This document shows positions 3,106 through 42,572 of a stretch of DNA of 64,000 nucleotides, piece after piece. Source of the stretch: Escherichia coli (lineage in GTDB: Bacteria > Pseudomonadota > Gammaproteobacteria > Enterobacterales > Enterobacteriaceae). How positions within the stretch are numbered: the first letter of the stretch is position 1; each line of letters opens with the position of its first letter. Below the pieces are notes generated by a model. That model saw only the letters and a program-made list of their open reading frames with translations, was not told where the DNA came from and did no database searches. The stretch is taken from NCBI RefSeq assembly GCF_045037415.1, contig NZ_CP173438.1. The stretch is one strand, 5' to 3'. A program made the translations under genes and the position numbers.

Positions 3106-3117
3106 AAGAATGAACAA

Positions 3118-3150
3118 CTGCCCCATGTGGATATGGGGCAGGATTTTATT
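3118..3150. terminator. Putative bidirectional rho-independent terminator between convergent yjhU and transporter gene
   Basis: Inverted repeat TGCCCCATgtggatATGGGGCA followed by a T-rich tract. Confidence 0.5.
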
Positions 3151-4151
3151 GATTAGCGGCGATAATAAGAACAATACCCACAATGTATGAAATAAACATG
3201 GTCAGCAGCAGTTTATTGGTTCCGGCTGGCGCACTGGCAAATTCTCTCCAGATGAAGACTCCCCAGATCACGGCAATCATTGTGGCCCCCTGTCCCAGAC
3301 CGTAGGAAATGGCATACCCCGCCTGACCAGACGCAATCAGACTGAATGCCAGACCGACACACCAAATCATACCGCCCAGCCAGCCGCAAACATGATCCCG
3401 TAAGCTCCCGGAAAAATACATTTTCCCGTTGACCGGTTCTCCTGAAATAGGTTTTTTCATGACCAGCGTGTTAAGGACAAAGTTCGACAAGAACAGCCCC
3501 ACGGCAAACAGAACAAGTGCTGAGTAAGGCGTCATCAGACCGCTGGCAGGCTGGCTGAAATTGTCAGACATGGAGTCCGCCAAGAAGCGGAAAAACCATC
3601 CCATGATGATACCCGCCAGAATGGCAGTAATGAGAACCTTTATTACGGCGAGATTTATCCGCCTCCTGCGTGACACGACCATAGGCTATCGCGGTAAAAA
3701 TAATGGCGCTCACAACGCAGGCGACACCGAGGAACAGAATGAGCGGATCGCCCTGCGGATTGCCGATATAGGTGGTGATCACACCCAGAGCCAGTGCCAG
3801 CCCCACACCCACAGGAAAAGCTACCGCCATACCGGCAAGATTAATAGAAGCGACCAGAAGAATATTGGAAATATTGAAGATAATCCCTGCCAGTATTGCC
3901 GACATCAGACTACTGCTGCTCGCCTGCTGAATATCAGGTATAAAACTGCGACCGGCTTCGCCCATAGAACCCAGCGTGAAGGCAAATAACAAAGAACACA
4001 GCAATAATCCAATTGAATAATCCCAATAGAATAGAGGGAACTCCCATTTTTTATTGCTGACAAGTTTAGTTGTATTCGCCCATGAACCCCAGCAAATCAT
4101 GGTAATAAAACACATTATTATGGCGACAGCATACGATTCCACGATAAACAT
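3146..4151 (-). CDS. GRP/RbsU-type (DMT superfamily) sugar uptake protein, apparently frameshifted around 3645-3680
   Basis: Two overlapping minus-strand ORFs (3564-4151 and 3146-3682), both multi-TM, frames switching near a shared SRR(R) stretch. Confidence 0.55.
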
Positions 4152-4254
4152 AAATAACTCCTTGTGGTAGTTATAATCAATCGTTGTGGACAGAGGGAAT
4201 AGCAGCCATTCTGCGAATGGCTGTCATATGTTATTAATTAAAATAAAGCTGTAA

Positions 4255-4896
4255 TTACGCTTTCAAACCATACGTTTTGAATTTTTCAAGGACGATGGTC
4301 ATTTCGGCTTCAGACAGCACGGGAACATCGTGATGTAATCCGCCACATTTGATGTATAAATCAGCCAGCGTCTCGGTTTCACCCGCCAGCCACAACGTCT
4401 TTTCCAGCGTGACGTCCATGGCCAGCATACCGTGGTGCTGCATCAGCAAGGACTTACTTTCTCTGATTCCTTTAGATACACCGTCGGCCAGTTCAGGACT
4501 GCCAAAGGTATAATAGGGAATACAGGGAATATGATCCGTCCCCGATACCGCCACCATATAATGAATGGCCGGAATTGAATGATTATGTATTGCCACCGCC
4601 GTGGAATTCACCGCATGCGTATGTATGACAGCATTCAATTCTGGTCTGGCTTTATAACACGCCAGATGAAATAACCATTCACTTGATGGTATTTTACCCG
4701 CTTCAGGTATTCCCTTATCGTCTACAAAGACAATCATGTCCGGCGTCATCTTTGAATAAGCGATCCCACTCGGCGTAATCAACATGCCACCGGTATACCT
4801 GGCACTCACATTACCTGATGTTCCTTGATTAAGACCTGACGCATTCATTTCCCGACAAGTGGAAATGATTTTTTCTGCTAACTTAATCCGTTCCAT
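4255..4896 (-). CDS. Class II aldolase/adducin-family protein (DHAP-shunt type aldolase)
   Basis: 213-aa ORF with class II aldolase signatures (GTSGNVSAR, metal-binding His cluster HTHAVNSTAVAIH); immediately downstream of mtnA. Confidence 0.8.
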   Translation of the reverse strand: MERIKLAEKIISTCREMNASGLNQGTSGNVSARYTGGMLITPSGIAYSKMTPDMIVFVDDKGIPEAGKIPSSEWLFHLACYKARPELNAVIHTHAVNSTAVAIHNHSIPAIHYMVAVSGTDHIPCIPYYTFGSPELADGVSKGIRESKSLLMQHHGMLAMDVTLEKTLWLAGETETLADLYIKCGGLHHDVPVLSEAEMTIVLEKFKTYGLKA

Positions 4897-4926
4897 TCCT
4901 GATCCTTAATAGCAATGGCCGCCGTT

Positions 4927-6042
4927 TTAATGCTGTTCCCCCTGGAGTGCTTTACTCTTCAGGTCAGCAAACATATCCGCCAGCGCTGACTTACTGGCAG
5001 CACAGACTCCCCGCTCAGTAATGAAGCCGGTAATGTATCGGGCAGGCGTGACGTCGAAAGCGTAGTTCCCACAACGGGTTCCTTCAGGGGCGGTATTGAC
5101 CCAGCTCAATTCTCCCTGAGGGTTTATCCCATAGACATGGGACTGCTCTTTTCCGTCACGTTGCTCAATCGGAATGCTTTTTCCGTCCTCGATAGTCCAG
5201 TCAATAGTGGGAGAAGGTAACGCGACGTAGAAGGGAACATGGTTATCATGGGCCGCCAGCGCCTTAAGATAGGTACCAATTTTATTACAGACATCCCCTC
5301 TGGCCGTGGTTCGATCGGTCCCAACAATGCAGAGATCAACGTCACCGTGTTGCATCAGGTGGCCACCCGCGTTGTCGGCGATCAGGGTGTGAGGAATACC
5401 GTGTGAGCCCAGTTCAAATGCCGTGAGTCCGCCCTGATTACGTGGCCGCGTTTCATCCACCCAGACGTGAACAGGGATTCCGTTTTCATGCGCTTTGTAG
5501 ATGGGAGAAAGCGCGGTTCCCCAGTCTACAGTCGCCAGCCAGCCTGCGTTACAATGTGTCAGGATATTGACCACACTCCCGGCCGGTTTTTTCTGGGCTA
5601 TTTCGCGGATGACTTCTGTACCATGTAATCCAATTTGTTCACACAACGCGACATCTTCCTCGGCAATTTCTGCCGCCAGCGCCCAGGCCACATCCTTGCG
5701 CTCTGATACACAGAGATCCTTCAGTGTGTCTATCATCCTGTCGAGGGCCCATTTGAGATTAATTGCCGTTGGTCGGGTTTTGATAAGAAGGTCATAGTAA
5801 CGCTGCAGACCCATGTCACTGGCATCGTGATTCATTCCCAGCGCGATGCCATAGGCTGCAACGACACCAATAAGCGGAGCGCCACGAACCCACATCTCCT
5901 GAATAGCCGTAGCGGCCATTTCCGCAGAGGTAAGCGCCACCACCTCGAACTTAAAAGGCAACTTAGTCTGATCGATGATTTCTACCGCTTTTCCATCCCC
6001 GGAAACCCAGACCGTACGATAGTGTTTACCTTTAATATTCAT
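4927..6042 (-). CDS. mtnA: S-methyl-5-thioribose-1-phosphate isomerase (eIF-2B alpha/beta/delta family)
   Basis: 371-aa ORF; N-terminus ...[19 protein letters not shown] and ...[20 protein letters not shown] typical of MtnA. Confidence 0.85.
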
Positions 6043-6051
6043 AATGACCTC

Positions 6052-7311
6052 TTACTTAACCTTCGCAGACTGGATGACGGAATCCATATTTTTAAACTGG
6101 CGGGCATTGACGATAAGATCGCGCGCCATGGTCAATGCACGTCGTTCACATCCTGCGCGAAGCTCTGTATTTTCAATCTGTTTCAGCTCGGCAACGCCAG
6201 CAAAACCAATGATCCGGCGATTCATTTCCATGCCGGCATTCACCAGGGAATCTTCAAGCAGCGTGGCAAAAAACTGATCCTGTGCGTCCTCAAGAGCGGC
6301 CCTGTTCTGTTGATACATTTCTGTCGGCCACGCGTCGCCCTGTGTTTTGTTGTCCCAGAGCTGGCGGAACTCCCGGGTGAAAACGGACCAGGTTTGGACA
6401 ATCTGCTGAAGCAGCCATTCCTGATAGTCAGCGCGACGTTGCTCATTCGCATCCCACCCAGGGCGTGAGAAGTACGCCAGCAGGAGGTTGCCAATATAGT
6501 TGCCGATATCAAACGCCATTGGCCCCATGAAACCGAACTCCGGATCAATCACTTTGGTATCCGTGTCGGTCACCATGATTGAGCCTGAATGAAGGTCGCC
6601 ATGTAACAATGCCTGCGCTTCTGTCATAAATTTGTACTTATAACGCATGGCAACCTGGATCATCTCTACATCAGCCCAGGCCTTATGGACGGCATCGTCC
6701 AGCTCAGGAGAAGTCCAGTTATTCCGTTCAGCGTTGTAATAGGGCTCTGTGAAGATCAGATCTTCCGTAATTTTGCACAGCTCATGATTCAACGCGAACT
6801 CGGCAGTAAGCGCTTTTTTCTGTTCTGCTGACATGCCAATGTCAGACGTATTGAAGAGAGTCTGTGCTAAAAATCTGCCGATATCTTCAGCTAGTTTAGG
6901 GAATTTTTTACCGTTAATCAGTTCCTTACGCAGAATCACGTGAGGAGTCAGATACTCCATGGCAAACAGCGCCATTTCCGGGTCGTAAAAATAGACCTGC
7001 GGAATCAGTGTGTGACCCGCGTACTTGGCTTCCTGACATAAGACGTTGTACTCAAAGCCCGCACGGCTCAGAGATAAAGGCCATCCTTCGCCCCCTGCAC
7101 GAAGCCAGGGCAGAGCTTGTTTTACAATGATGGTTTTATGTGTCCCCTCAACGATAAACACCATGTTCAGGTTTCCGTCCCCCACTTCTGAAACTTTCCA
7201 CTCTTCAGGTAACCCTCCCGGTTCGCATGAAGGGGTCAGTCTGGACGAGAGATAACCCGGCAGCGTGTCACATGTCAGCGGCTTGTAACCTGATGGAATT
7301 GAATCCGTCAT
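6052..7311 (-). CDS. mtnK: 5-methylthioribose kinase
   Basis: 419-aa ORF with aminoglycoside-phosphotransferase-like kinase fold motifs (HGDLHSGSIMV, DPEFGFMGP); 10-bp gap to mtnA. Confidence 0.85.
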   Translation of the reverse strand: MTDSIPSGYKPLTCDTLPGYLSSRLTPSCEPGGLPEEWKVSEVGDGNLNMVFIVEGTHKTIIVKQALPWLRAGGEGWPLSLSRAGFEYNVLCQEAKYAGHTLIPQVYFYDPEMALFAMEYLTPHVILRKELINGKKFPKLAEDIGRFLAQTLFNTSDIGMSAEQKKALTAEFALNHELCKITEDLIFTEPYYNAERNNWTSPELDDAVHKAWADVEMIQVAMRYKYKFMTEAQALLHGDLHSGSIMVTDTDTKVIDPEFGFMGPMAFDIGNYIGNLLLAYFSRPGWDANEQRRADYQEWLLQQIVQTWSVFTREFRQLWDNKTQGDAWPTEMYQQNRAALEDAQDQFFATLLEDSLVNAGMEMNRRIIGFAGVAELKQIENTELRAGCERRALTMARDLIVNARQFKNMDSVIQSAKVK

Positions 7312-12823: not shown

Positions 12824-13547
12824 ATTTCTAGCCAAGCTGGCGATGAACCAGTCCTCTAAAAAATGGGTATAATCATAGTTTATTTACTAATTAAATTAAT
12901 ATAAAGTAATTACTTTATTATATGGAGAATTTATGAAAATGGGAAAAATTGCAGTTACTCCTAATAATGATAAAGCAGCCAGCCACTCTAAAGATGAAAA
13001 TTTAGCCACAAATACAATTAAGAAAAACGTAAAACCTAAATATGGCGATGCGGCATTTTTAGAGTACACTCGACTAATAGTTAACCACCCGAATTATTTT
13101 GGAATGCCAGATCCCTTTGGGGAAAAAGGTGAGATTCAATGGGAAGCTCCATCAAATAGGGCATCGGGGAAATTTAAACACACTCATCAACGGCGCTATG
13201 AATGGTGGAAAAATAAAGCCAGAAGTATTGGGATAGACCCTGACACTGAAAAAGCATGGATTAGTAAAACAGCTAAACTAATTCATCCACTTGGAGTTAA
13301 ACCATGCAAGAAATGCGGTAAAGAAATGGAATTATCTTACTCCTACCCAAATGAGCATTTCTTTTCTCGGGTTAGGAAACTTAATTATATAGATGAGACT
13401 TTTGAGCTATCTCAAAATGAACACATAGTTGATTTGTTGACTCGTTTAGATGATAGATTTGGTGAAAGAATATATTTAGATTTACCACATTTATTTTCTA
13501 CAAAATCCATCACGATTTGAAGTGGTCAACAAAAACTGGCCACCGAG

Positions 13548-14695
<1,148 letters not shown>

Positions 14696-25354: not shown

Positions 25355-25369
25355 TGTACTTCTCTCCAT

Positions 25370-30233: not shown

Positions 30234-30444
30234 CAGCTTTTCCTTACAGAGGGTGAATAAAAAAGCCGGTACCCACAAAAGTGGATACCGGCAGGTACAA
30301 AACAGCATGGTCAGATAAAGTGGTTTTTCCCGGACATAAATGCTTCCCCTCTCTCATCCGCCAGAGAAGTATCAGTCCGTTGTGTGCAATTCCGTTCTGC
30401 ATGATGAAGAGATTCAGCTGCCTTTTCGCAGACCATTAACCACT

Positions 30445-30490
30445 ATAAACGATCGATGGTAACGATCGATACCTGTTTTATCGATCGTTT
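30445..30490 (-). promoter_or_regulatory. flu (agn43) phase-variation switch region with three clustered GATC (Dam) sites
   Basis: GATC at 30451-30454, 30464-30467 and 30483-30486 upstream of the flu start. Confidence 0.55.
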
Positions 30491-30580
30491 TATTCTATTA
30501 ACAGCAGAGCAGTCACGCAAGAGAAACAGGAGGGGGATGGAGTGTTTGTATCATGTTTTCAGTTGGTTAACGCAATGTAA

Positions 30581-31477
30581 TCAGGCATTTCCCCTGGCAG
30601 AGTGTTCAGAAGAAAATCCAGTTCCATACAGCGCGGGCAACAGAGACCACCGTGTCACGGACGGCACGCAGAACCGTGCGTGCAACAGAGGCAATACAGA
30701 CGCTCTCCGCCGTGTCAAATATCCGGTCCACCGCACCGGTAAACTGTTCACGGGCCTGAACCGGACAGATTCCGTGCGCAGCTCGTCCTGCAGGCGGGTC
30801 ATCAGGGGACTGGCGGCATGGTCGGGAAGTGCTGTCATGAGCGCACTGACCAGCGTATCCAGTTCCCAGCCGGTGCGGGCCGATACGGCCACAACCGGAT
30901 GTACGGGCCGGAACAGACGGAATACCGCCTCCGTTTTCTCCCGAATGTTCTGTGCCTGTGCGGGAGAAGGCTGAATGCCGGCCATATCCCATTCATGGCA
31001 GGGCTCCGTTTTGTCGGCCTGCGTCACCACAAACAGCACCTGCTGATGTCCCCGGTGCAGGATGTGTCGCCAGAAATACTCATCCACAGACAGGGCACGG
31101 TCATCGGCTTTAATCAGCCACAGTACCAGGTCAAGTTCAGGCAGAATGTCACGGTACAGGGCTTCATACTCTGCATCCCTGTTCCGGCTCTCGCCCACCC
31201 CGGGCAGGTCAGTGATAACCATGCTGTGACCATGGCCACTCAGACGGAAGCGCCGTACTTCCCGGGTGCCGGCGTGAACATCACTGACCGGGGTGACCTC
31301 CCCCTGAAACAGTGCATTACAGAGTGAGGATTTACCGGCCCCGCTTTTACCCATAATGCCAATCACGGGTTCGTGACTGGTGAGTTTGCGCAGATGTTCC
31401 AGGATGTGACGGGAAAGCGAGTAAGGCAGGGAGGAGAGCGGTTTTTCAATTGCCTCAATGGCATCAGACGGATTCAT
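30581..31477 (-). CDS. yeeP: YeeP/YkfA/YfjP-family GTPase, probable C-terminal frameshift near 30770-30780
   Basis: G1 motif GIMGKSGAGKSS, G3 DLPGVG; the conserved C-terminus (...QAREQFTGAVDRIFDTAESV...) is in another frame (ORF 30606-30992). Confidence 0.7.
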   Translation of the reverse strand: MNPSDAIEAIEKPLSSLPYSLSRHILEHLRKLTSHEPVIGIMGKSGAGKSSLCNALFQGEVTPVSDVHAGTREVRRFRLSGHGHSMVITDLPGVGESRNRDAEYEALYRDILPELDLVLWLIKADDRALSVDEYFWRHILHRGHQQVLFVVTQADKTEPCHEWDMAGIQPSPAQAQNIREKTEAVFRLFRPVHPVVAVSARTGWELDTLVSALMTALPDHAASPLMTRLQDELRTESVRFRPVNSLPVRWTGYLTRRRASVLPLLHARFCVPSVTRWSLLPALYGTGFSSEHSARGNA

Positions 31478-31561
31478 ACATGTATTCCCGGTGAAAAAAG
31501 ACAAAACCCCCGCACACCGGAAAGGTGGCGGGGGACTCACGGAGATAATATATGTCTGAAA

Positions 31562-32479
31562 TTATCTGGAATGTCGGTACCTTTTATACTCTTCAACAAT
31601 CAGGTCATGCAGCATTTCGCCGGTACTGAGTCTTCTGACCCTCGATAATTCTTTGAGCTGCGCCCTGGTTTCTGCGTCAAGAAAAAACTGTACATTGACT
31701 TTATCTTCCTGCATTTTTTTGTACTTGCGCTGCGCCTTGGCCTTATTGAAACTGTTTCTGAAATTTTTTATATCGTCAGGTGAGGTGAGTGGACAGGTAA
31801 CCCATATGTCAAATGAAAGGTGGATTGCGTGGTAAATATCAGCAGAACCAGGAAAACTGGCCAGTTTTTCCAGTGCAATATTTTTTCCCTTCAAATAATT
31901 CCATGTCCATATGCATTCATGTTCGTTCTCCGGGAGGAGGTAACTGAAAGGACTCTTTGATTTAAATGCCCGTATCCATCTGTCTTTGGTCTGGATTATC
32001 CACTCATCCCGCAAATTCTTATCAGAAAGAATATCGAGAACTCTGAGTATTTGTCTGAACTGTGTCGATGAGTCCGACGGGAAGGCATTCCCTTCCAGAT
32101 ACTCTTCTTTAAGATACAGTTTATTCTTTTGAAGCAAGTCTGCGCTTATTTTTGCCCTGTTATTCTGGATAAACTGCATCAACAGATACCAGGAAAATAA
32201 GCATGCGCGTTCACTGCCCGCGATCCAGGATATTTTTTCCAGGGGGACCAGGAAGGCCAGGGCCTTCAGACGCATACCAGAAATTATTTGTTCAAGTTCA
32301 AAATCTGAAAGTGTGATGTTCAGATTTTCTCTGTTTTTTTTTATGTAAGCGATAAAACGTTCCGGGGGATCATAAACATTAAGGGGCAGTACGGAGATAT
32401 TACGCTCTCCAAGATAATAAGAGTAATACGCATTTGTTCTTTCATTCATAACCTTATCCGACAAAATTTTCTGAACCAT
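31562..32479 (-). CDS. Hypothetical protein (305 aa) with C-terminal ribbon-helix-helix-like segment; AT-rich
   Basis: Long uninterrupted ORF; C-terminus VNVQFFLDAETRAQLKELSRVRRLSTGEMLHDLIVEEY; no recognised family. Confidence 0.6.
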   Translation of the reverse strand: MVQKILSDKVMNERTNAYYSYYLGERNISVLPLNVYDPPERFIAYIKKNRENLNITLSDFELEQIISGMRLKALAFLVPLEKISWIAGSERACLFSWYLLMQFIQNNRAKISADLLQKNKLYLKEEYLEGNAFPSDSSTQFRQILRVLDILSDKNLRDEWIIQTKDRWIRAFKSKSPFSYLLPENEHECIWTWNYLKGKNIALEKLASFPGSADIYHAIHLSFDIWVTCPLTSPDDIKNFRNSFNKAKAQRKYKKMQEDKVNVQFFLDAETRAQLKELSRVRRLSTGEMLHDLIVEEYKRYRHSR

Positions 32480-33679: not shown

Positions 33680-34297
33680 TCAGTTGCGGTTATCGTCAAC
33701 CGTTGTGCGGTATGCCAGGAGCACGTACTGATCCATCAGATCCGTCAGTGCTGCGCTCTGCCTCTGACGGTTGATGATCCATTCCTCCAGCTCTTTTTCT
33801 GATTTCCGTTTCAGGTTCTCTTTCCAGTCTTCAAGGCTGTTTCCGGTCATTAAATCAAGCCAGCAAAGCCAGACCAGTTTGAGGCGCAACTCCGTGCCAC
33901 CAAACTGACGGAAGAGGCTAATCAGTTTATTTGCCAGAGAACGCTGCCTCAGACGTTCACATTCAGACAGGAGAATGCCTTCCAGCATCGGATGATGAAC
34001 CAGCAGATGTTCACTGGTGCATAAATTCACTATCAGATCATCATCCAGGGGCGGCGTGGCCCGTTTGTCAGGGCCATAAATCAGCCGGTGCAGGCTCTGG
34101 GGTACGATGGCAATCTCCGGTTTTTCACCATTGAATGACACCCACCCGGGCGTCAGATTATGGAAGTAGTAGATATTCGGATGACACACGCCCCAGGATA
34201 CGGCGTGCCGGGTGAAGCCGGTCAGCCATTTCTGGTAGCTTTCGTGGAGCAGTTCGTAACGGGTCTGATACTGTTGTTTCATTTTCATATTCCTCAC
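33680..34297 (-). CDS. Hypothetical protein (205 aa) downstream of alpA
   Basis: ORF only; no recognised motifs. Confidence 0.45.
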   Translation of the reverse strand: MRNMKMKQQYQTRYELLHESYQKWLTGFTRHAVSWGVCHPNIYYFHNLTPGWVSFNGEKPEIAIVPQSLHRLIYGPDKRATPPLDDDLIVNLCTSEHLLVHHPMLEGILLSECERLRQRSLANKLISLFRQFGGTELRLKLVWLCWLDLMTGNSLEDWKENLKRKSEKELEEWIINRQRQSAALTDLMDQYVLLAYRTTVDDNRN

Positions 34298-34377
34298 GGG
34301 GGATATAACAGGCAGCAGAATGCCGCCGGCAGGCCGGGGATTACGTCTGCTGCGGGTGAACGGATAACGGTCAGAAA

Positions 34378-34584
34378 TTACGGGCGGGGCTGTGCAATAC
34401 GCGCCTGTAGCCAGGCTTCCACTTCACTTTTCAGCCAGCGGGAGCTGCGGCCCAGCTTGATGGGAGCCGGAAAGGCCCCATCCCTGATGAGCCTGTAAAA
34501 CCACTTATCTGTCAGGCCGTTCAGTTGAGTGATAAATGCCATGTCGACCATCTGGTCATCCATCAGTGAAACTGGGGTGGTCAT
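34378..34584 (-). CDS. alpA: AlpA-family prophage transcriptional regulator
   Basis: ATG at 34584; ...FITQLNGLTDKWFYRLIRDGAFPAPIKLGRSSRWLKSEVEAWLQARI typical of AlpA. Confidence 0.8.
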   Translation of the reverse strand: MTTPVSLMDDQMVDMAFITQLNGLTDKWFYRLIRDGAFPAPIKLGRSSRWLKSEVEAWLQARIAQPRP

Positions 34585-35309
34585 GAGAATGTTCCTCCGG
34601 ATGTTGTTAATCTCAACCGGCGTTGGTGATGAAAACAACGCACCACCTTCACCGGCATAACAACCGGGGAGAAACGTAAAAAATAATCGGGAATGTGACC
34701 GTCAGGAGATAAACGGGGGGATTGCGGTGGCTGAGCCGTACCGGTATGTCGGGTGGTTGTTGCGAAACGATGCTTCCGCACGCGCACGCGATAAAGGAGG
34801 GAGGACTTTCGTGAGACAAGGGGAAAACTAGCGTTCTGATAATTGCAGAGTTGTTTTTGAAGGCGGTTGTGGTATATCAGCCTGTGACCTGTGGGCAGGC
34901 GACAGTTATCACTGGTGGGATAAGACTGTCTGATTGGTATTATAAATATATAAGAGAGATCAAACACATGAGATCAAATACATGAGTTCATATATGTGAA
35001 ATAAACACTGTGAGTGCGATCAGTGGGCATGAGAACGCAGTAGCAGCAGATTGCGTTGTACCCACAGGGCTATCTCTGATAGCTGGCGTATAACCTGCGT
35101 ATATAAAACGTACCTGCAACACACGTGAACAGAGTGCATTAAGCATCCGTCTGAGCGGTAAACGTATCCGACCTGGTGAGTGACAGTCTGAGAGACCGGT
35201 TAAGTGGTGGCACGGGAGTAATGAGTTTGGGGAGGGTACCAGAATGCCAGGCTGGTGCGGTATGCTGACAGCATCCTGTTAACCGCAGCATAAAGTAATG
35301 AGAGGCTAA

Positions 35310-35507
35310 TGGAAGTTAAAACCACAGCAGTTCCGTCGTTGTTCATCCCGGGAGACGCTGGAAAAAGTGATTTCCCACACGCGTTATAAACTTACCCCTG
35401 CGGAGCTGGAAGCCTTTAACTCTGCCGTTGACAACCGGCTGGCAGAACTGACAATGAACAAACTTTACGATCGCGTGCCGGCTTCCGTCTGGAAATATGT
35501 CACCTGA
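35310..35507 (+). pseudogene. Hha/YmoA-family regulator homolog lacking an in-frame start (likely N-terminal frameshift)
   Basis: Frame gives ...RRCSSRETLEKVISHTRYKLTPAELEAFNSAVDNRLAELTMNKLYDRVPASVWKYVT*; an ATG at 35309 is in the +1 frame. Confidence 0.4.
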
Positions 35508-35839
35508 ATCTTGAATCCGCGCTACGATGACTCCGGTGTTATCTGTGCACCGGAAGATCGGGAACATTAAGCAGTATAACGGCAACAAAGAATTCGAAAT
35601 CAAAAGGGAATGGTGTACAGAGGGGCAGGCGTTCAGGCATTACCGGCCTGTATCTTCTGAAGGGGACTCGTATTTGTCGGGGCTGAGTATTCCGCTCGAT
35701 TCGATCACGGATTGGCGGAATACCTGACTGTGATTGATTCAGATACCATTTTGCAGGGAGCCGGTGCGTTACTGTCTGGCACAACAAACGCAGCGGGTCG
35801 CTCTGCCCCGCCGATTCCTGATAATCCCTCCCCTGTAAC

Positions 35840-36034
35840 CTACTGCAACAGTACAAATACACTGACGCCTGAAACGGTAACCAGAATCAGCACCAGCAGT
35901 AACGTCAGTAAACAGAGCAGACGATCGGTCTTCCGGTAATAACCGAAGGGGTCGACAGCGCCACAATACGGGCAACAAACTGTATTATGAGTAATTGCGT
36001 TACCACAGTCCCTGCACTTCTTTTTGCGTATCAC
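35840..36034 (-). CDS. Small zinc-ribbon membrane protein (hypothetical)
   Basis: 64 aa; CRDCG...CCPYCG followed by a hydrophobic helix. Confidence 0.35.
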   Translation of the reverse strand: MIRKKKCRDCGNAITHNTVCCPYCGAVDPFGYYRKTDRLLCLLTLLLVLILVTVSGVSVFVLLQ

Positions 36035-36236
36035 GATAGCTCCCTCGCCACGCCTTATCCGTAACCGGTTTTTTACATTAAAAAAAACAACGCCGGGAAT
36101 TCAATCGTCAGTCCGGAGACGACCGTTCGGGTTATCACAGAGTGCCTGAGACAGTGTCCTGCCGGAGGTCACTTCAGGGACTCTGCGTATTTTTTACGAC
36201 GTGGCTATTCCGTATGAACCATACGGAGATTTAACC

Positions 36237-36806
36237 ATGACCTACAAATACAACCCCTTCTGGCAGCAACGTATTCGTGAGACGGTGCGGCACGCACTGA
36301 ATGTTCATCCCCGCCTGACGGCATTGCGGGTTGACCTGCGTTTCCCGGATGTACCGGCAGCAACGGACGCAGCTGTGATATCCCGCTTCATCAATGCCCT
36401 GAAAGCCCGAATCGACGCTTACCAGAAACGTAAGCATCGGGAAGGTAAACGCGTGCATCCCACAACCCTGCATTACGTCTGGGCCCGGGAGTTTGGGGAG
36501 TGCAAAGGTAAAAAACACTATCACCTGATGCTGCTGGTTAACCGGGATACCTGGTGTCGTGCCGGTGATTACCGTGCTCCGGGATCACTGGCCGGGATGA
36601 TTAAACAGGCGTGGTGCAGTGCCCTGGGAGTGGATGTCGGGTGCCATGCCACGCTGGTGCATTTTCCGGCCTGGCCGGCGGTGTGGCTGGAACGCGATGA
36701 TGACACTGGCTTTCAGCAGGTGCTGGAACGTGCTGACTATCTGGCGAAGGAACATACCAAAGCTCACTGCACCGGTGAGCGCAATTTTGGCTGTAGCCGG
36801 AGTTGA
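36237..36806 (+). CDS. Inovirus Gp2-like / YagK-YfjJ family protein (HUH rolling-circle Rep-like)
   Basis: ATG at 36237 (MTYKYNPFWQQRIRE...); HUH-like motif KKHYHLMLLVN; family recalled from CP4-6/CP4-57. Confidence 0.7.
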   Translation: MTYKYNPFWQQRIRETVRHALNVHPRLTALRVDLRFPDVPAATDAAVISRFINALKARIDAYQKRKHREGKRVHPTTLHYVWAREFGECKGKKHYHLMLLVNRDTWCRAGDYRAPGSLAGMIKQAWCSALGVDVGCHATLVHFPAWPAVWLERDDDTGFQQVLERADYLAKEHTKAHCTGERNFGCSRS

Positions 36807-37059
36807 GCACGACTGGCGCGCCAATACCCGGCAAACCAAAAGTATGGGTTGTTGTCTGGCGGCAACGATGTATCCACTCGCCCACTGACTGTTTTTTACG
36901 TCAGTGTTCCATTGTGTGACAACCACAGTGCTGTAACAGCAACCAGCCTGCTTTACCCAAACTCCAGTCCAGATTTTAACTGAACCGCCATTCACACCCT
37001 GACCACGCTGCCCGTACCGGGACGGCTGTTGCCTGCGTGTCGTCTGGCGGCTGAGGAAT

Positions 37060-37467
37060 ATGACTATGTACGCAAAATCCTTTATCGCTCTTGATGGCAA
37101 CGGACGTCTGACGGGCGCCCGTACTGCACAGGCCGCACCTTATGCTCACTACACCTGCCACTTGTGTGGCAGTGCACTCAGATACCATCCGCAATACGAC
37201 ACTGAACTTCCCTGGTTTGAACACACTGACGACAGGCTGACAGAGCACGGTCAACAGTGCCCTTATGTCAGGCCGGAGCGCAGAGAAATACAGTTGATTA
37301 AACGTCTGCAGCAATTCGTACCGGATGCCTTACCCGTGGTGCGTAAAGCCAGCTGGCACTGCAGACAATGTCACCACGATTATTATGGGGAGCAGTACTG
37401 CACACACTGCCAGACCGGAGGATTCAGTATTCCCCGGACAACTCAGGAGGAAATATGCGAATTCTGA
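37060..37467 (+). CDS. Zinc-ribbon protein resembling the N-terminal domain of CoiA-like competence proteins (paralog 1)
   Basis: YTCHLCGSALRY...PWFEH...WHCRQCHHDYYGEQYCTHCQTGG; paralogous to the next ORF. Confidence 0.5.
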   Translation: MTMYAKSFIALDGNGRLTGARTAQAAPYAHYTCHLCGSALRYHPQYDTELPWFEHTDDRLTEHGQQCPYVRPERREIQLIKRLQQFVPDALPVVRKASWHCRQCHHDYYGEQYCTHCQTGGFSIPRTTQEEICEF

Positions 37468-37889
37468 ACTGTTATATGGCGAATGACAGCAAAGGCCATT
37501 TTGTTACGGCGAAAGAAGCTGCGAAGCACAACCGACAGGACGTTTTGTGCTGTGTGTCCTGTGGATGCCCGTTAACACTTCAGCGGGGCAATGACGGACA
37601 ACCACCGTGGTTTGAACATGACCAGATGACTGTCGCTGAAAAAATCCTGCTGCGATGTACCTGGCTTGACCCGGCAGAGAAAGAGGCCCGTCGTTTGCAT
37701 CTGCAGGGCATGACGGTTCCGGATTATACGGTGAAGGTGAGAAAGTGGTTTTGTGTGATGTGTGACGAAGATTATGAGGGGGAAAAGTGCTGCCCACGCT
37801 GCGGTACCGGGGTATACAGCAGGGCGTGGGGGCGGCAGGAGGTGCCGTCGGAAGATGCCAGGGCTGATAATCCGTTACAGAGGCTGTAA
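37455..37889 (+). CDS. Zinc-ribbon protein resembling the N-terminal domain of CoiA-like competence proteins (paralog 2)
   Basis: LCCVSCGCPLTL...PWFEH...WFCVMCDEDYEGEKCCPRCGTGV; start overlaps paralog 1 by 13 bp. Confidence 0.5.
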   Translation: MRILNCYMANDSKGHFVTAKEAAKHNRQDVLCCVSCGCPLTLQRGNDGQPPWFEHDQMTVAEKILLRCTWLDPAEKEARRLHLQGMTVPDYTVKVRKWFCVMCDEDYEGEKCCPRCGTGVYSRAWGRQEVPSEDARADNPLQRL

Positions 37890-38151: not shown

Positions 38152-38222
38152 GTAAGCGTACAGCCTGAACCGTCTGGTCAGAATCTGACGAATTAGACAA
38201 AGTGGTGTCCACCAAATAAGTA

Positions 38223-38624
38223 GTGGGAACCAAAGTGTCAGATATGCAGAAAAATGTGACTCCCGGCAGGCGAAAAGGCTGCCCTAATTATCCTCCCGAA
38301 TTTAAACAGCTGCTCGTTGCTGCCTCCTGTGAACCCGGGATATCCATCTCAAAACTTGCTCTTGAAAATGGCATTAACGCCAATCTGTTGTTCAAATGGC
38401 GACAACAATGGCGCGAGGGAAAGCTGCTATTACCTTCTTCAGAGAGCCCCCAGCTACTTCCTGTGACTCTCGATGCAGCTGCCGAACAGCCAGAATCGCT
38501 CGCAGAGGACCCGGAAACCCTCAGTATCAGCTGTGAGGTAACGTTCCGGCACGGGACGCTCCGCTTCAATGGCAATGTCAGCGAAAAGCTCCTGACTCTG
38601 CTGATACAGGAACTGAAGCGATGA
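38223..38624 (+). CDS. IS66 accessory protein TnpA (orf1)
   Basis: 133 aa with HTH (ISISKLALENGINANLLFKWRQQ). Confidence 0.8.
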   Translation: MGTKVSDMQKNVTPGRRKGCPNYPPEFKQLLVAASCEPGISISKLALENGINANLLFKWRQQWREGKLLLPSSESPQLLPVTLDAAAEQPESLAEDPETLSISCEVTFRHGTLRFNGNVSEKLLTLLIQELKR

Positions 38625-38968
38625 TCCCGTTACCTTCCGGGACCAAAATTTGGCTGGTTGCCGGTATCACCGATATGAGAAATGGCTTCAACGGCCTGGC
38701 TGCGAAAGTACAAACGGCGCTGAAAGACGATCCCATGTCCGGCCATGTTTTCATTTTCCGGGGCCGCAGCGGCAGTCAGGTTAAACTGCTGTGGTCCACC
38801 GGTAACGGACTGTGCCTCCTGACCAAACGGCTGGAGCGTGGGCGCTTCGCCTGGCCGTCAGCCCGTGATGGCAAAGTGTTCCTTACGCAGGCGCAGCTGG
38901 CGATGCTGCTGGAAGGTATCGACTGGCGACAGCCCAAGCGGCTGCTGACCTCCCTGACCATGCTGTAA
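38621..38968 (+). CDS. IS66 TnpB (orf2)
   Basis: 115 aa, MIPLPSGTKIWLVAGITDMRNGFNGLAAKVQ... typical IS66 orf2. Confidence 0.85.
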   Translation: MIPLPSGTKIWLVAGITDMRNGFNGLAAKVQTALKDDPMSGHVFIFRGRSGSQVKLLWSTGNGLCLLTKRLERGRFAWPSARDGKVFLTQAQLAMLLEGIDWRQPKRLLTSLTML

Positions 38969-39017
38969 ATCTCTTTATCCTGGTTGTCACAGAATAAGCC
39001 CGGTAAAATACGGGCTT

Positions 39018-40403
39018 ATGAACGACATCTCTTCTGACGACATCTTCCTGCTAAAACAGCGCCTGGCCGAACAGGAAGCGCTGATCCACGCCCTGCAGGA
39101 AAAGCTGAGCAACCGGGAGCGCGAAATAGACCATCTGCAGGCGCAGCTGGATAAACTCCGCCGGATGAACTTCGGCAGTCGTTCCGAAAAAGTCTCCCGC
39201 CGTATCGCACAAATGGAAGCCGATCTGAACCGGCTTCAGAAAGAGAGCGATACGCTGACTGGTAGGGTGTATGACCCGGCAGTACAGCGTCCGTTGCGTC
39301 AGACCCGCACCCGTAAGCCGTTCCCTGAATCACTACCCCGTGACGAAAAGCGACTGTTGCCTGCGGCGCCGTGCTGCCCGAACTGCGGCGGTTCACTGAG
39401 CTATCTGGGCGAGGATACCGCCGAACAGCTGGAGTTGATGCGTAGCGCCTTCCGGGTTATCCGGACGGTACGGGAAAAACATGCCTGTACTCAGTGCGAT
39501 GCCATCGTGCAGGCACCTGCACCTTCGCGGCCCATCGAGCGGGGTATCGCCGGACCGGGGCTGCTGGCCCGCGTGCTGACCTCGAAGTATGCAGAGCACA
39601 CCCCGCTGTATTGCCAGTCAGAAATATACGGCCGGCAAGGTGTGGAGCTGAGCCGTTCACTGCTGTCGGGCTGGGTGGATGCATGCTGCCGGCTGCTGTC
39701 TCCGCTGGAAGAGGCGCTTCATGGCTATGTCATGACTGACGGCAAACTCCATGCCGATGATACCCCGGTCCAGGTACTGCTGCCGGGTAATAAGAAGACG
39801 AAGACCGGGCGGTTGTGGGCGTATGTTCGTGATGACCGCAATGCCGGGTCAGCGTTGGCACCTGCAGTGTGGTTCGCTTACAGCCCGGACAGAAAAGGCA
39901 TCCATCCGCAGACTCATCTTGCTTGCTTCAGCGGTGTGCTGCAAGCGGATGCGTACGCCGGGTTCAACGAGCTGTATCGCAATGGTGGGATAACGGAAGC
40001 TGCCTGCTGGGCTCATGCCCGCCGAAAGATCCACGATGTGCACGTCCGCATCCCGTCAGCACTGACGGAAGAAGCCCTAGAGCAGATCGGTCAGTTGTAC
40101 GCCATAGAGGCGGATATAAGGGGAATGCCGGCAGAGCAGCGGCTTGCTGAACGTCAGCGAAAAACGAAACCGCTGTTGAAATCCCTGGAAAGCTGGTTGC
40201 GTGAAAAGATGAAGACCCTGTTCTTCGGCTCTGGCCATGGTGGTGAGCGGGGAGCGCTACTGTACAGCCTGATCGGGACGTGCAAACTGAATGACGTGGA
40301 TCCAGAAAGCTACCTTCGCCATGTGCCTGGCGTCATAGCAGACTGGCCGGTCAACCGGGTCAGCGAACTGCTTCCGTGGCGCATAGCACTGCCAGCTGAA
40401 TAA
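39018..40403 (+). CDS. IS66-family transposase TnpC (orf3), possibly shortened
   Basis: 461 aa with leucine-zipper N-terminus, CxxC zinc motif and DDE core; shorter than the recalled ~520 aa. Confidence 0.8.
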   Translation: MNDISSDDIFLLKQRLAEQEALIHALQEKLSNREREIDHLQAQLDKLRRMNFGSRSEKVSRRIAQMEADLNRLQKESDTLTGRVYDPAVQRPLRQTRTRKPFPESLPRDEKRLLPAAPCCPNCGGSLSYLGEDTAEQLELMRSAFRVIRTVREKHACTQCDAIVQAPAPSRPIERGIAGPGLLARVLTSKYAEHTPLYCQSEIYGRQGVELSRSLLSGWVDACCRLLSPLEEALHGYVMTDGKLHADDTPVQVLLPGNKKTKTGRLWAYVRDDRNAGSALAPAVWFAYSPDRKGIHPQTHLACFSGVLQADAYAGFNELYRNGGITEAACWAHARRKIHDVHVRIPSALTEEALEQIGQLYAIEADIRGMPAEQRLAERQRKTKPLLKSLESWLREKMKTLFFGSGHGGERGALLYSLIGTCKLNDVDPESYLRHVPGVIADWPVNRVSELLPWRIALPAE

Positions 40404-40641
40404 CACATCCCCGTCAATACGGCCCTCGCTGTACGCTTACTTTTGTTCGGACTGCTTATGGCCTTTTTCCACTGGTGTAGCAGGAAAGTTAACCGGCTGC
40501 CACCATGAGATGACGTGTAAACCGTGCAGGCATGTTTTCACGTGGTGACGCTTTCATTGGGGGTCTACGCCGGAACCCCAATATTGTTCACATACATGAA
40601 TTTGAAAAACTAAGCGATACTGCTGTCCGTACCTTATAAAC

Positions 40642-42000
40642 TTATTTCAACGCTTCCGGCAGCGTCACAATCCACAGTTCACTGTCAGACTCCGGTTTCT
40701 CCAGTGGCTTCACTCTGAGGGTCGTTTCAACCTGCTTGTCGTCAAGCGTCAGCTTTCCTTCCGCGTTCACCCGATAATCCTTGAATGTCTTGCCCTCGAC
40801 CGGATGTTGCATCGCCACCTTCACGCCAAAGTCGTTATCGTTCGCCACCGCCAGCGTTTTGCTGTCGATCAGCGCCAACCCTTCAGCCTTCTCCTGCTGC
40901 CAGCCCAAGGAGCGCAGATCAACAACCTGCGTTTTCTGCGCAAGGGTAATGCCGCGCTGTGACAGGGTTTTCTCATCATCAAACTCCGGATACTCACCCG
41001 GCTTGTCGAAGCCTGACAGGTCGCTCGCCTTATTGAGATCGACCTCGTAAATCAGGTTACGCATTCTGTTGTTTTTATCTCTTCCCTGTTCGATCAGCAG
41101 GATGTGCTGGTTATCGAGCGCCACGATGTCTCCGATTTTAGCGTCGCTGTTTTTGCTGTAGGCCGCGCTGTCGATAGGATAACCGTACATCGCGGTTTTT
41201 CCGCTTGCCGGATCGAAGCTCACCAGACGCGTAAACAGCGCCTTTTTCTTGCTCTTAGCGTCGATATCCAGCGTACTTTGCACGGCGACAATAATACGCC
41301 CGTCCGGCATACGGGTGAGGCCTTCAAAGCCGCGGTTCGCCTGACGCCATTTGAGGATATTTGGCAAACCGCCCGCAATCGCTTTTTCCCCTTCCGCCGC
41401 CTGCGGACCGTGGATTGCCAGGATTTTCCCTTTACTGTCGATGTTAATCAGGAACGGGCCATACTCATCGCACAGCCAGTAACCTCCTTTACCATCCGGA
41501 GTGATCCCTTCCGTATCCAGCCCGCGATTATCCCCCTTCAGTCTATGTAACGTGTCGCTGAAGGCCACTTCATTGGTGGAGCCAATCACGTCGCTTGCCA
41601 GCGGCAGACCGTTGATCGCGCCTTTATCGTCATGCAGAGGACGGGGATCGATGGCCTCCGCTTTGCCGTTTTGTACACGAATCGTCATCAGCAGCGGCGC
41701 GAAATCTGGCGTAACGAAAATTTTAGTTTCGTTTTTCCCCTCTTTCGGTGAATCCGCGTTCGGACCGCGATCGGTAATGGTTGCGAATGTCAGGGCATCG
41801 CCCTGTTTACCGGTGAACAGCAGGCCAGAACCTATCCCAACCGGAAGGCCGTTCGGGAATGCACTGGCAAATGCGCCGGCGTAGTTCACGTGCGTGCCTT
41901 CTGGAAAACTGACGACATAGCGCTCAGCCGTAGGTTGTGCCGCCAGGGCAGAGAAAGAGAGCGTACAACCGATTAGCACGGGAATAATTTTTCTTTTCAT
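40642..42000 (-). CDS. Secreted esterase-like / phytase-like family protein
   Basis: ATG at 42000; signal peptide MKRKIIPVLIGCTLSFSALA; family assignment tentative. Confidence 0.7.
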   Translation of the reverse strand: MKRKIIPVLIGCTLSFSALAAQPTAERYVVSFPEGTHVNYAGAFASAFPNGLPVGIGSGLLFTGKQGDALTFATITDRGPNADSPKEGKNETKIFVTPDFAPLLMTIRVQNGKAEAIDPRPLHDDKGAINGLPLASDVIGSTNEVAFSDTLHRLKGDNRGLDTEGITPDGKGGYWLCDEYGPFLINIDSKGKILAIHGPQAAEGEKAIAGGLPNILKWRQANRGFEGLTRMPDGRIIVAVQSTLDIDAKSKKKALFTRLVSFDPASGKTAMYGYPIDSAAYSKNSDAKIGDIVALDNQHILLIEQGRDKNNRMRNLIYEVDLNKASDLSGFDKPGEYPEFDDEKTLSQRGITLAQKTQVVDLRSLGWQQEKAEGLALIDSKTLAVANDNDFGVKVAMQHPVEGKTFKDYRVNAEGKLTLDDKQVETTLRVKPLEKPESDSELWIVTLPEALK

Positions 42001-42289
42001 ATTGTTAGCATCCATAAAGTGAAGATCACACTACACCATAAAGAAGAAACGAGTCAGGAAAATGACATCGAATGGCAACATGCGCGGGCCTGAGGCCAAA
42101 GAAATGTAAAACACTGTTGTTATTTGTAACAACGGAAACATTTACGGAAATTATTTGTCTTTCTTCGTGATCAAAAATGCTGTGTCTTGTTGGATTGGAG
42201 TGATGAGGGCTGCGTTTAGGAAACGCCCTATATTGTACGGTTGCATTATCGCGGTAGGGGTAATGCACGTGTCAGTATGATGAGCTGAC

Positions 42290-42415
42290 CACACTCACGT
42301 GGGTGGACTGGTATAACAATCGACGATTGCTGGAAAGGCAGGGCCATATCCCACCGGCAGAAGCAGAAAAAGCTTATTATGCTTCCATCGGAAACGATGA
42401 TCTGGCAGCCTGAGT
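42290..42415 (+). pseudogene. Possible integrase-core (transposase) C-terminal fragment
   Basis: Frame gives ...VDWYNNRRLLERQGHIPPAEAEKAYYASIGNDDLAA*, resembling transposase C-termini. Confidence 0.25.
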
Positions 42416-42572
42416 TCACAGATAAAACACTCTCCAGGAAACCCGGGGCGGTTCACTTAGCCGCGTGTCCATTATTGCTGGATAAGATCACACTTTAAAA
42501 TGCCCTATATAGGGTTAACCAGTAATTATCTGTATGATAGCTTTGAGTTCGGGAGGAGGTAATGACTCCAAC

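What the first reader, a model, noticed from the sequence alone, without database searches (positions are those of the whole stretch)
3110..42557. About 39-kb mosaic accessory segment inserted between yjhU and IS1-fecI relative to the K-12 arrangement
The flanks (yjhG-yjhF-yjhU, and IS1-fecIRABCDE-yjhV fragment-IS911) mirror K-12 KpLE2 in reverse complement, where IS1 lies directly beside yjhU. Here salvage genes, restriction systems, a CP4-like module, three IS types and an esterase gene are interposed. The IS1 has no target duplication, which fits an IS1-mediated rearrangement joint.
Basis: partly seen in the sequence, partly recalled or inferred. Interest (0 to 1): 0.45.

Follow-up and report, generated by a model that had tools for sequence, protein, structure and literature searches.

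The report
K-12 deletion, not an ST131 insertion
The 39 kb that this ST131 chromosome has and K-12 lacks is the inner part of the already described leuX genomic island, and the difference arose because the K-12 lineage deleted it from the end of an IS1 copy, not because ST131 gained it.

Summary
K-12 MG1655 aligns to window 1-3203 and 42558-53125, so 3204-42557 (39,354 bp) is missing from K-12 and its IS1F abuts 3203. The listed contents are there, and the IS1 has no target duplication. The word 'inserted' does not hold. The left breakpoint lies inside the permease gene of the DHAP-shunt operon (mtnK-mtnA-ald2-permease); K-12 keeps only its last 58 bp, next to yjhU, the operon's published repressor MtnR. 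Natural isolate 23CRST013 has near-K-12-identical flanks (1 mismatch in 8,300 bp; 3 in 10,233 bp) yet keeps the DNA between IS1F and yjhU. Strain C10, also K-12-like, has a second endpoint (3841) at the same IS1 terminus. Among 5,426 complete genomes, 1,238 have yjhU joined to the permease gene. 360 have the K-12 joint, and every one listed is a K-12 laboratory strain. The window's own IS1 joint is the common one (2,062 genomes). The segment is not one unit: a leuX 3'-end repeat at about 19.8/22.4 kb separates the operon and restriction block from a CP4-like island. This is the published ST131 GI-leuX island. Interest is low.

The parts
2119..3105 (+). yjhU (= mtnR), the repressor of the adjacent DHAP-shunt operon. 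It lies in the flank that K-12 retains.
   Evidence: RefSeq annotation WP_000373366.1, the same accession as in ATCC 25922. Published function in PMC12632272.
3146..4151 (-). GRP-family sugar permease, the last gene of the DHAP-shunt operon. The K-12 deletion endpoint is 3203|3204, so K-12 keeps 3146-3203 (58 bp). The strain C10 endpoint is 3841|3842. In this window the gene is frameshifted by an extra A at 3636.
   Evidence: ORFs split into 3146-3682 and 3564-4151.
4255..7311 (-). [quoted passage not shown]
   Evidence: PGAP names. TIGR01767 MTR kinase 522 bits against a cutoff of 275, and PRK08087 aldolase 364 bits against 264. Protein accessions identical to ATCC 25922. Function in PMC10986504.
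9469..12823 (+). McrB-like (691 aa) and McrC-like (428 aa) pair. Only the AAA+ part resembles K-12 McrB.
   Evidence: NCBIfam: McrB 143.5 bits against a cutoff of 637 (residues 389-612 only); McrC 98 bits against 338. PGAP names.
12933..15925 (+). Eco31I-type restriction endonuclease gene, split by ISEc52 (13518-14767, 3-bp duplication ATT).
   Evidence: Removing the IS and one ATT restores a 579-aa ORF. The gene is intact at 1,740 bp in EC958 and Nissle.
15938..18761 (-). The two Eco31I-type methyltransferases: m5C (15938-17128) and m6A (17121-18743). G+C of the block is 0.34.
   Evidence: PADLOC MTase_II full-length matches. PGAP names. Described as M1/M2.EcoMI, 100% identical to Eco31I, in PMC4659465.
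19811..22419 (.). leuX 3'-end repeat (23 of 25 nt: 19811-19816 plus 22403-22419), interrupted by ISEc12 (19817-22397, 5-bp duplication GGTGC). It is an att-like boundary between two layers of the island.
   Evidence: Alignment score 19 against a maximum of 16 in 60 shuffles. Uninterrupted in Nissle and EC958.
22559..32479 (-). Distal module of a CP4-like island: DUF957, DUF5983, CbtA/YeeU toxin-antitoxin, DUF987, JAB (YeeS-like), antirestriction, DUF932, DUF905, Ag43/Cah, GTPase (frameshifted in this window at 30760) and a hypothetical gene.
   Evidence: PGAP annotation. About 90% nucleotide identity to K-12 CP4-44 over part of it (H220). IS102 RNA motif at 30252-30488.
33680..37889 (.). Small island genes: a hypothetical gene, an HTH regulator, an hha fragment, an inovirus Gp2-family gene and two zinc-ribbon proteins.
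   Evidence: PGAP annotation. No NCBIfam or PADLOC match.
38152..40440 (+). IS66-family element (tnpA, tnpB, tnpC) with 22-nt terminal inverted repeats and no 8-bp target duplication.
40642..42000 (-). Gene of the esterase-like phytase family.
   Evidence: PGAP annotation. Present in the same position in Nissle, 23CRST013, Y5 and 2013C-3277.
42282..42557 (+). IS3-family transposase fragment (42282-42413), followed by the 104-bp flank (42454-42557) that abuts IS1.
   Evidence: The flank|IS1 joint is present in 2,062 genomes. Other strains carry a 1,173-bp indel at 42453-42455.
42558..43325 (-). IS1F-type IS1. It is 90.5% identical to the IS1A consensus, has a premature stop in InsB, and has no target duplication. 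Its IRR terminus (42558) is the fixed anchor of the K-12 and C10 deletions.
43357..53125 (+). ykiE, fecIRABCDE, a yjhV fragment and IS911/IS600 remnants. This flank is shared with K-12 at 99.75%.

Best explanation
[quoted passage not shown] It is a patchwork, not one insert.

The pieces, left to right:
1. The DHAP-shunt operon (mtnK-mtnA-ald2-permease), which forms one functional unit with the adjacent repressor gene yjhU/mtnR.
2. A restriction block: a McrBC-like pair plus the Eco31I system.
3. A leuX 3'-end repeat marking an old integration boundary.
4. The distal half of a CP4-like island with Ag43 and a CbtA toxin-antitoxin pair.
5. Small island genes, an IS66-family element and an esterase gene.

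K-12 lacks all of this because its lineage suffered one or two deletions anchored at the right terminal inverted repeat (IRR) of the IS1F copy beside fecI. The most likely mechanism is IS1 intramolecular transposition, the classical 'adjacent deletion'. The IRR end attacks a target in the same molecule and the DNA between is lost. Here the targets lay inside the permease gene.

What is shown: the direction (K-12 is the deleted form), the exact anchoring at the IS1 terminus, and the nested endpoints. What is inferred: that transposase, rather than recombination, made the cut. IS1F itself has a dead transposase gene, so the enzyme would have come in trans from consensus IS1 copies.
For: Breakpoints:
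- K-12 aligns to window 1-3203 and 42558-53125 with no overlap or gap at the IS1 end.
- Position 3203 lies 58 bp inside the 1,005-bp permease gene, which is intact in ST131 strain 4993, Nissle and ATCC 25922. An insertion cannot create a complete gene across its own junction.
- G+C is continuous across the left junction: 0.491 for yjhF-yjhU and 0.492 for the operon.

Function:
- yjhU is MtnR, the repressor of that operon (PMC12632272). K-12 therefore holds a regulator without its operon.

Related genomes:
- Strain 23CRST013 matches K-12 at 99.988% over 8,300 bp on the yjhU side, 99.97% over 10,233 bp across fec-IS1F, and 99.965% over 2,844 bp on the nanXY side. It still has 28.2 kb between IS1F and yjhU, in the same order as the window.
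- Strain C10 is 99.984% identical to K-12 on the yjhU side. The same IS1 terminus there is joined to window position 3841, leaving 696 bp of the permease gene.

Population counts in 5,426 complete genomes:
- yjhU contiguous with the permease gene: 1,238. The K-12 joint: 360. All 40 best hits, and all 8 half-coverage records that match yjhU only up to the K-12 breakpoint in a spread sample, are K-12 laboratory derivatives.
- The window's flank|IS1 joint: 2,062. The IS1|fecI joint: 2,590.

The IS1 itself:
- K-12's IS1F differs from the window copy at 6 of 768 positions and from IS1A at about 73, so it is not a chimera with a consensus IS1.
- The terminal repeats differ from IS1A by one base each.
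- Published work shows IS1F is immobile alone (PMC12428005). With InsAB' oversupplied in trans it is the most readily mobilised of the four normally immobile K-12 copies (PMC12903888).
Against: - The IS1F transposase frame carries the same premature stop (EVVV*MTDGW) in the window, K-12 and C10. It was therefore already dead before the deletions, and native trans activity of IS1 transposase is reported to be low.
- The missing target duplication is not diagnostic. The undeleted forms (the window and 23CRST013) also lack one.
- An IS1 x IS1 recombination between IS1F and a second IS1F-type copy would give the same product.
- The exact content lost by the K-12 ancestor is uncertain. It was about 26-28 kb if the ancestor resembled 23CRST013, which lacks the restriction block, and 39 kb if it resembled ST131.
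- The genome collection is biased towards ST131 and K-12. I did not map the states on a core-genome tree.
Confidence: 0.8

Rival explanations
1. The ST131 lineage gained a 39-kb mosaic segment, inserted between yjhU and IS1-fecI into a K-12-like ancestral arrangement by an IS1-mediated rearrangement.
For: The IS1 lacks a target duplication. The segment is compositionally mosaic and rich in IS elements. K-12 is the shorter form.
Against: - The left junction falls inside an intact gene whose last 58 bp K-12 retains.
- The operon it belongs to is controlled by the retained neighbour yjhU.
- A strain with K-12-identical flanks carries the segment.
- A nested endpoint exists in C10.
- The K-12 joint was seen only in K-12 laboratory strains among those listed, whereas 1,238 genomes have the contiguous form.
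- The window's IS1 joint is the common one, in 2,062 genomes.
Confidence: 0.03
2. K-12 is the deleted form, but the deletion was made by RecA-dependent recombination between IS1F and a second, directly repeated IS1F-type copy that had first inserted into the permease gene. On this view it was not made by transposase-driven intramolecular transposition.
For: The product would be identical: one IS1, one old flank, one new flank and no matching duplication. IS1F has no working transposase of its own.
Against: - It needs an extra IS1F-type copy, and IS1F is immobile on its own (PMC12428005).
- K-12 has a single IS1F-type copy. Its sequence shows no patch of consensus IS1.
- Two different endpoints (3203 and 3841) would need two such insertions, or one insertion plus one further event.
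- No intermediate with two copies turned up in the loci I examined.
Confidence: 0.13
3. The K-12 arrangement arose when the IS1-fec module moved as a unit into the permease gene of a strain that had never carried the CP4-like part.
For: - The IS1|fecI joint is far more widespread (2,590 genomes) than any one context.
- IS1-fec is found beside a tRNA-Phe island in a cat isolate.
- fec without IS1 occurs on a plasmid.
Against: - No 5' part of the permease gene lies on the far side of the fec module in K-12.
- No second IS1 bounds the module.
- K-12's far side (IS911, yjhV, nanXY) is collinear and nearly identical with 23CRST013, which has the full interior.
Confidence: 0.03

Closest known systems
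GI-leuX of E. coli ST131 strain EC958 (Totsika et al. 2011, PMC3203889; Forde et al. 2014, PMC4134206; methylome paper PMC4659465)
   Same: It is the same island at the same locus. EC958 is 99.98-100% identical over the stretches compared, and it carries the fec locus, the Eco31I-identical EcoMI system and the McrBC-like pair.
   Different: IS content differs. This window has ISEc52 inside the endonuclease gene, which is intact in EC958. Its ISEc12 sits in the leuX repeat at 19816/22398, whereas in EC958 it sits near window position 24617.
KpLE2 / leuX island of E. coli K-12 MG1655
   Same: The flanks and gene order match: yjhG-yjhF-yjhU on one side, and IS1F-ykiE-fecIRABCDE-yjhV-IS911 on the other, at 99.6-99.7% identity.
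   Different: K-12 lacks 3204-42557. It has IS30D inserted where homology ends at window 53125, and it retains only 58 bp of the permease gene.
DHAP-shunt operon with MtnR (YjhU) of E. coli ATCC 25922 (PMC10986504, PMC12632272)
   Same: All five protein accessions are identical (MtnK, MtnA, Ald2, permease, YjhU). The DNA is 99.98% identical over 10,036 bp. The same upstream ORF, WP_000788354, is present.
   Different: The window's permease gene has a 1-bp insertion at 3636. In ATCC 25922 the ISEc52 sits in the mcrB-like gene instead of the endonuclease gene.
IS1-promoted adjacent deletions, classically described at the gal operon (from my own knowledge: Reif and Saedler 1975)
   Same: The deletions start exactly at one IS1 terminus, the IS and its other flank are retained, and the distal endpoints vary and are nested.
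   Different: The IS1 copy here has a dead transposase gene, so the activity would have to come in trans. These events are inferred from natural genomes, not observed.

Membership tests
IS1-mediated adjacent deletion (applies to the K-12 and C10 alleles) | The deletion begins exactly at an IS1 terminal nucleotide, and the IS with its other flank is retained. | tested here: met
   K-12 joins window 3203 to 42558, and C10 joins 3841 to 42558, with no overlap or gap. The fecI-side flank is unchanged.
IS1-mediated adjacent deletion (applies to the K-12 and C10 alleles) | A progenitor allele exists with the same IS1 and the intervening DNA intact. | tested here: met
   23CRST013 has flanks 99.97-99.99% identical to K-12 and 28.2 kb between IS1F and yjhU.
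IS1-mediated adjacent deletion (applies to the K-12 and C10 alleles) | Several nested endpoints run from the same IS end. | tested here: met
   Endpoints at 3203 (K-12) and 3841 (C10), both on K-12-like haplotypes. Only two were found.
IS1-mediated adjacent deletion (applies to the K-12 and C10 alleles) | Transposase-dependent and recA-independent formation. | not testable with these tools
   IS1F's InsB frame has a premature stop in all three alleles. Trans-mobilisation of IS1F is published (PMC12903888).
tRNA-leuX genomic island (GI-leuX / KpLE2) | Lies between leuX and the yjh/nan/fim side of the locus. | tested here: met
   In strain 4993, tRNA-Leu lies about 14 kb right of the window end, and nanC-nanM lie about 17-18 kb left of its start.
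tRNA-leuX genomic island (GI-leuX / KpLE2) | An integrase gene next to the tRNA gene. | tested here: inconclusive
   Only a truncated tyrosine recombinase fragment lies next to leuX in strain 4993. It is outside the window.
tRNA-leuX genomic island (GI-leuX / KpLE2) | A direct repeat of the tRNA 3' end at the distal boundary. | tested here: met
   A 23-of-25-nt repeat at 19811-19816 plus 22403-22419, in the same orientation as leuX, scoring above all 60 shuffles. It lies inside the segment, not at its edges.
DHAP-shunt operon | mtnK, mtnA, a class II aldolase gene and a permease gene in one cluster next to yjhU/mtnR. | tested here: met
   MTR kinase equivalog 522 bits against a cutoff of 275; aldolase subfamily 364 bits against 264. 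Accessions identical to the experimentally studied ATCC 25922 genes. The permease gene is frameshifted in this window.
Eco31I type IIS restriction-modification system | An m6A methyltransferase, an m5C methyltransferase and an intact endonuclease. | tested here: not met
   Both methyltransferase genes are intact. The endonuclease gene is split by ISEc52 at 13518-14767, so in this strain the system looks modification-only.
E. coli K-12 McrBC (type IV restriction) | Full-length similarity to McrB and McrC above the curated cut-offs. | tested here: not met
   McrB model 143.5 bits against a cutoff of 637, covering only residues 389-612 of 691. McrC 98 bits against 338. It is a McrBC-family relative, not the K-12 system.
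CP4-type integrative island (CP4-44 / CP4-57 kind) | The distal gene set: GTPase, Ag43, DUF932, antirestriction, YeeS, YeeT, YeeU, CbtA and YeeW, ending at an att repeat. | tested here: met
   PGAP annotation. About 90% nucleotide identity to K-12 CP4-44 (H220). The leuX repeat lies just beyond DUF957. No integrase lies within the segment.

The most novel reading that the evidence does not exclude
K-12's lack of the DHAP shunt and its 'orphan' regulator yjhU/mtnR both result from one or two deletions anchored at a transposase-dead IS1F that was mobilised in trans. These happened in the immediate K-12 lineage, and natural isolates still preserve the pre-deletion allele (23CRST013) and an intermediate or sibling allele (C10). 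I did not find this explanation in the papers I could read. It would mean that yjhU looks more widespread than its operon mainly because K-12 genomes are so numerous.
Probability: 0.7. Interest if true: 0.3.

Novelty: already known. Interest (0 to 1): 0.15.

Why it matters
It matters little for discovery. The island, its fec locus, the Eco31I/EcoMI system and the DHAP-shunt operon with MtnR are all published. The useful result is a correction of direction. K-12, the usual reference, is the derived state at this locus, so 'extra' DNA relative to K-12 should not be read as an insertion. The work also gives a concrete reason why K-12 keeps yjhU/mtnR without its operon. And it adds a natural example of deletions anchored at IS1F, a copy that laboratory work shows can move only with transposase supplied in trans.

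Tried and rejected
- Target duplication: I looked for one around the IS1 in the window, K-12 and 23CRST013. None exists in any of them, so its absence cannot date the event.
- Empty site: I looked for a site without IS1 upstream of fecI. A plasmid (L007) lacks IS1 exactly at the boundary (…CAGCA|GAAATCCCC), but its left flank, which looks like a transposase-gene (TnpB-type) fragment, has no match in the window. It does not reveal the original target.
- A wrong guess: I first thought 23CRST013 showed a further IS1-adjacent deletion in the window. It does not. The 1,173-bp difference lies 104 bp away from IS1.
- An undercount: my first junction query (427 genomes) undercounted the IS1 joint because of that indel. 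A shorter query gave 2,062.
- Chimeric IS1: I checked for one as a sign of recombination with a consensus copy. None was found.
- Literature: North et al. 2020 (PMC7237333) is not held. The search combining KpLE2, leuX, fec and IS1, and the one paper I read from it, gave no description of the K-12 deletion.
- Other scans: Rfam gave only the IS102 RNA motif upstream of Ag43, and there is no tRNA gene in the window. NCBIfam and PADLOC gave nothing for six island proteins: the 305-aa and 205-aa hypotheticals, the esterase, Gp2 and the two zinc-ribbon proteins.


Full report
**Where the window comes from.** The first 25 kb are 100% identical to many ST131 chromosomes. I used strain 4993 (NZ_CP103557.1) as the annotated guide. 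The window differs from it in the first 50 kb by only two single-base indels: an extra A at 3636 and a missing G at 30760. In that genome tRNA-leuX lies about 14 kb to the right of the window end, next to a truncated integrase gene. The nanC-nanM genes lie about 17-18 kb to the left of its start. The whole window therefore sits inside the leuX island region.

**The observation.**
- BLAST of the K-12 locus against the window gives two collinear blocks: window 1-3203 (99.56%) and window 42558-53125 (99.75%). They abut each other at the end of K-12's IS1F.
- The DNA absent from K-12 is therefore 3204-42557, or 39,354 bp. The left edge is 94 bp too early.
- The listed contents are all present.
- The IS1 (42558-43325) is flanked by TCGGGAGGA and GAAATCCCC, so it has no target duplication.
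- G+C by module runs from 0.34 (Eco31I block) to 0.53-0.54 (CP4-like module, esterase gene) and 0.58 (fec).

**Direction of the event.** Five results show that K-12 is the deleted form.
1. Position 3203 lies inside the 1,005-bp GRP-family permease gene (3146-4150 in strain 4993), and K-12 keeps only its last 58 bp. That gene is the last gene of the mtnK-mtnA-ald2-permease operon, the DHAP shunt. The retained neighbour yjhU is that operon's repressor, MtnR (PMC12632272; PMC10986504). The window's five proteins carry the same accessions as in ATCC 25922, the strain used in those experiments, and the DNA is 99.98% identical over 10 kb. G+C does not change across the junction (0.491 against 0.492).
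2. Strain 23CRST013 (human faeces, Ecuador) is almost K-12-identical on both sides. It has 1 mismatch in 8,300 bp from yjhU outward, 3 in 10,233 bp across fec-IS1F, and 1 in 2,844 bp at nanXY. It nevertheless carries 28.2 kb between IS1F and yjhU, in the same order as the window.
3. Strain C10 (river water, Panama) is 99.984% identical to K-12 on the yjhU side. The same IS1 terminus there is joined to window position 3841, leaving 696 bp of the permease gene. That gives two nested endpoints from one IS end.
4. Among 5,426 complete genomes, 1,238 have yjhU contiguous with the permease gene and 360 have the K-12 joint. All 40 best hits, and all 8 half-coverage records (matching yjhU only up to the K-12 breakpoint) in a spread sample, are K-12 laboratory derivatives.
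5. The window's own joint, the 104-bp flank next to the IS1 IRR, is present in 2,062 genomes. Of the genomes examined, Nissle and ATCC 25922 have the same window-type junction, and 23CRST013 has the identical flank. It is the common configuration, not a rearrangement peculiar to this lineage.

**Mechanism.**
- A deletion that starts at the exact terminal nucleotide of IS1, keeps the IS and its other flank, and has variable distal ends is the classical product of IS1 intramolecular transposition, known as 'adjacent deletion'. That identification rests on my own knowledge.
- One complication is that the InsB frame of this IS1 has the same premature stop in the window, K-12 and C10. The copy was therefore dead before the deletions happened.
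- Its terminal repeats differ from those of IS1A by one base each.
- Published work shows that IS1F does not move on its own (PMC12428005). With InsAB' oversupplied in trans, it is the most readily mobilised of the four normally immobile IS1 copies (PMC12903888).
- The alternative is recombination with a second IS1F-type copy. It would give the same product and cannot be excluded. It needs an extra copy of an immobile element. K-12's IS1F also shows no consensus-type patch: it differs at 6 positions from the window copy and at about 73 from IS1A.
- I rate the direction at about 0.95 and the transposase route at about 0.75.

**The segment is not one unit.**
- With ISEc12 (19817-22397, duplication GGTGC) removed, the sequence reads TGGTG-CGAAGGCCGGACTCAAAC. 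That matches 23 of the last 25 nt of leuX, in the same orientation as the tRNA gene, and scores above every one of 60 shuffles.
- The repeat lies just beyond the CbtA/YeeU-DUF957 end of the CP4-like module, where such islands carry their distal att repeat.
- The DNA to its right (22.4-42.5 kb and on through fec towards leuX) is therefore one integrated island. The DNA to its left (restriction block, DHAP-shunt operon, yjhU) is an older layer.
- Nissle has a second, perfect 25-nt copy farther towards leuX, which fits tandem build-up at this tRNA gene.
- Other lineages carry their own losses. 23CRST013 joins window 8050 to 23876 and truncates cbtA.
- This fits the published view that different parts of the leuX island were lost in different groups (PMC4374849).

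**Comparison with what is known.** This is the GI-leuX island of ST131, described as 79.1 kb with the fec locus in EC958 (PMC3203889; PMC4134206). Its Eco31I-identical system was named EcoMI (PMC4659465). The operon and MtnR are published. I did not find the IS1F-anchored deletion in K-12 described in the papers I could read. It is a small point, and North et al. 2020 was not available.

**Verdict.** The feature is already known, and interest is low.

Noticed in passing
window 19811-19816 and 22403-22419 (ISEc12 at 19817-22397): A 23-of-25-nt copy of the leuX 3' end, in the same orientation as leuX, split by an ISEc12 insertion (duplication GGTGC). It looks like the distal att repeat of the CP4-like island. 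Nissle has another, perfect 25-nt copy at L009 34318-34342.
   Followed up: partly
window 12933-15925 (ISEc52 at 13518-14767): ISEc52 splits the Eco31I endonuclease gene (duplication ATT). Removing it restores a 579-aa ORF, and both methyltransferase genes are intact. The identical 1,250-bp IS sits in the mcrB-like gene at window 10032-10036 in ATCC 25922 and at 10970-10975 in Nissle, and is absent from this block in EC958. That makes three independent hits on restriction genes within 4 kb.
   Followed up: partly
window 3636 and 30760: Compared with ST131 strain 4993, the window has an extra A at 3636, which frameshifts the DHAP-shunt permease gene. It also lacks a G at 30760, which frameshifts the GTPase gene. 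Neither position is in a long homopolymer. They could be real pseudogenes or sequencing errors.
   Followed up: partly
window 9469-12823: The McrB-like protein is 691 aa and matches the K-12 McrB model only over its AAA+ part (143 bits against a cutoff of 637). McrC-like scores 98 against 338. It is a different McrBC-family system, although PMC4659465 calls it the same system in a syntenic location in K-12. K-12 has no copy at this locus.
   Followed up: partly
L010 12525-16689 (Nissle 1917, NZ_CP022686.1): This Nissle 1917 assembly carries mtnK, mtnA, ald2 and the permease gene with the same protein accessions as ST131 and ATCC 25922. PMC10986504, however, lists Nissle among strains without the DHAP shunt.
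   Followed up: no
window 38152-40440: The IS66-family element has 22-nt terminal inverted repeats but no 8-bp target duplication (AAATAGTG against TTTTGTTC). In other strains a truncated DUF6404 gene lies beside it. This may be another IS-associated deletion joint.
   Followed up: no
window 42453-42455: 23CRST013, Y5 and 2013C-3277 have 1,173 bp more here (IS3 and IS5 fragments and a YmgB/AriR gene). ST131, Nissle and ATCC 25922 lack it.
   Followed up: partly
window 43326 (IS1|ykiE-fecI joint); L016; L007: The IS1|fecI joint is present in 2,590 of 5,426 genomes. In a cat isolate it lies beside a tRNA-Phe island integrase. One plasmid has fecI with no IS1, broken exactly at the IS1 boundary. 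IS1F and fec seem to travel together.
   Followed up: partly
window 30252-30488 (- strand): Rfam IS102 RNA motif (68 bits against a gathering score of 46), directly upstream of the Ag43/Cah gene.
   Followed up: no
L006 8529-11059 (23CRST013): An ISEc23 (IS66 family) insertion interrupts the permease gene at window 3423-3431 in the strain that preserves the pre-deletion K-12-like allele. The operon is hit repeatedly by IS elements.
   Followed up: no
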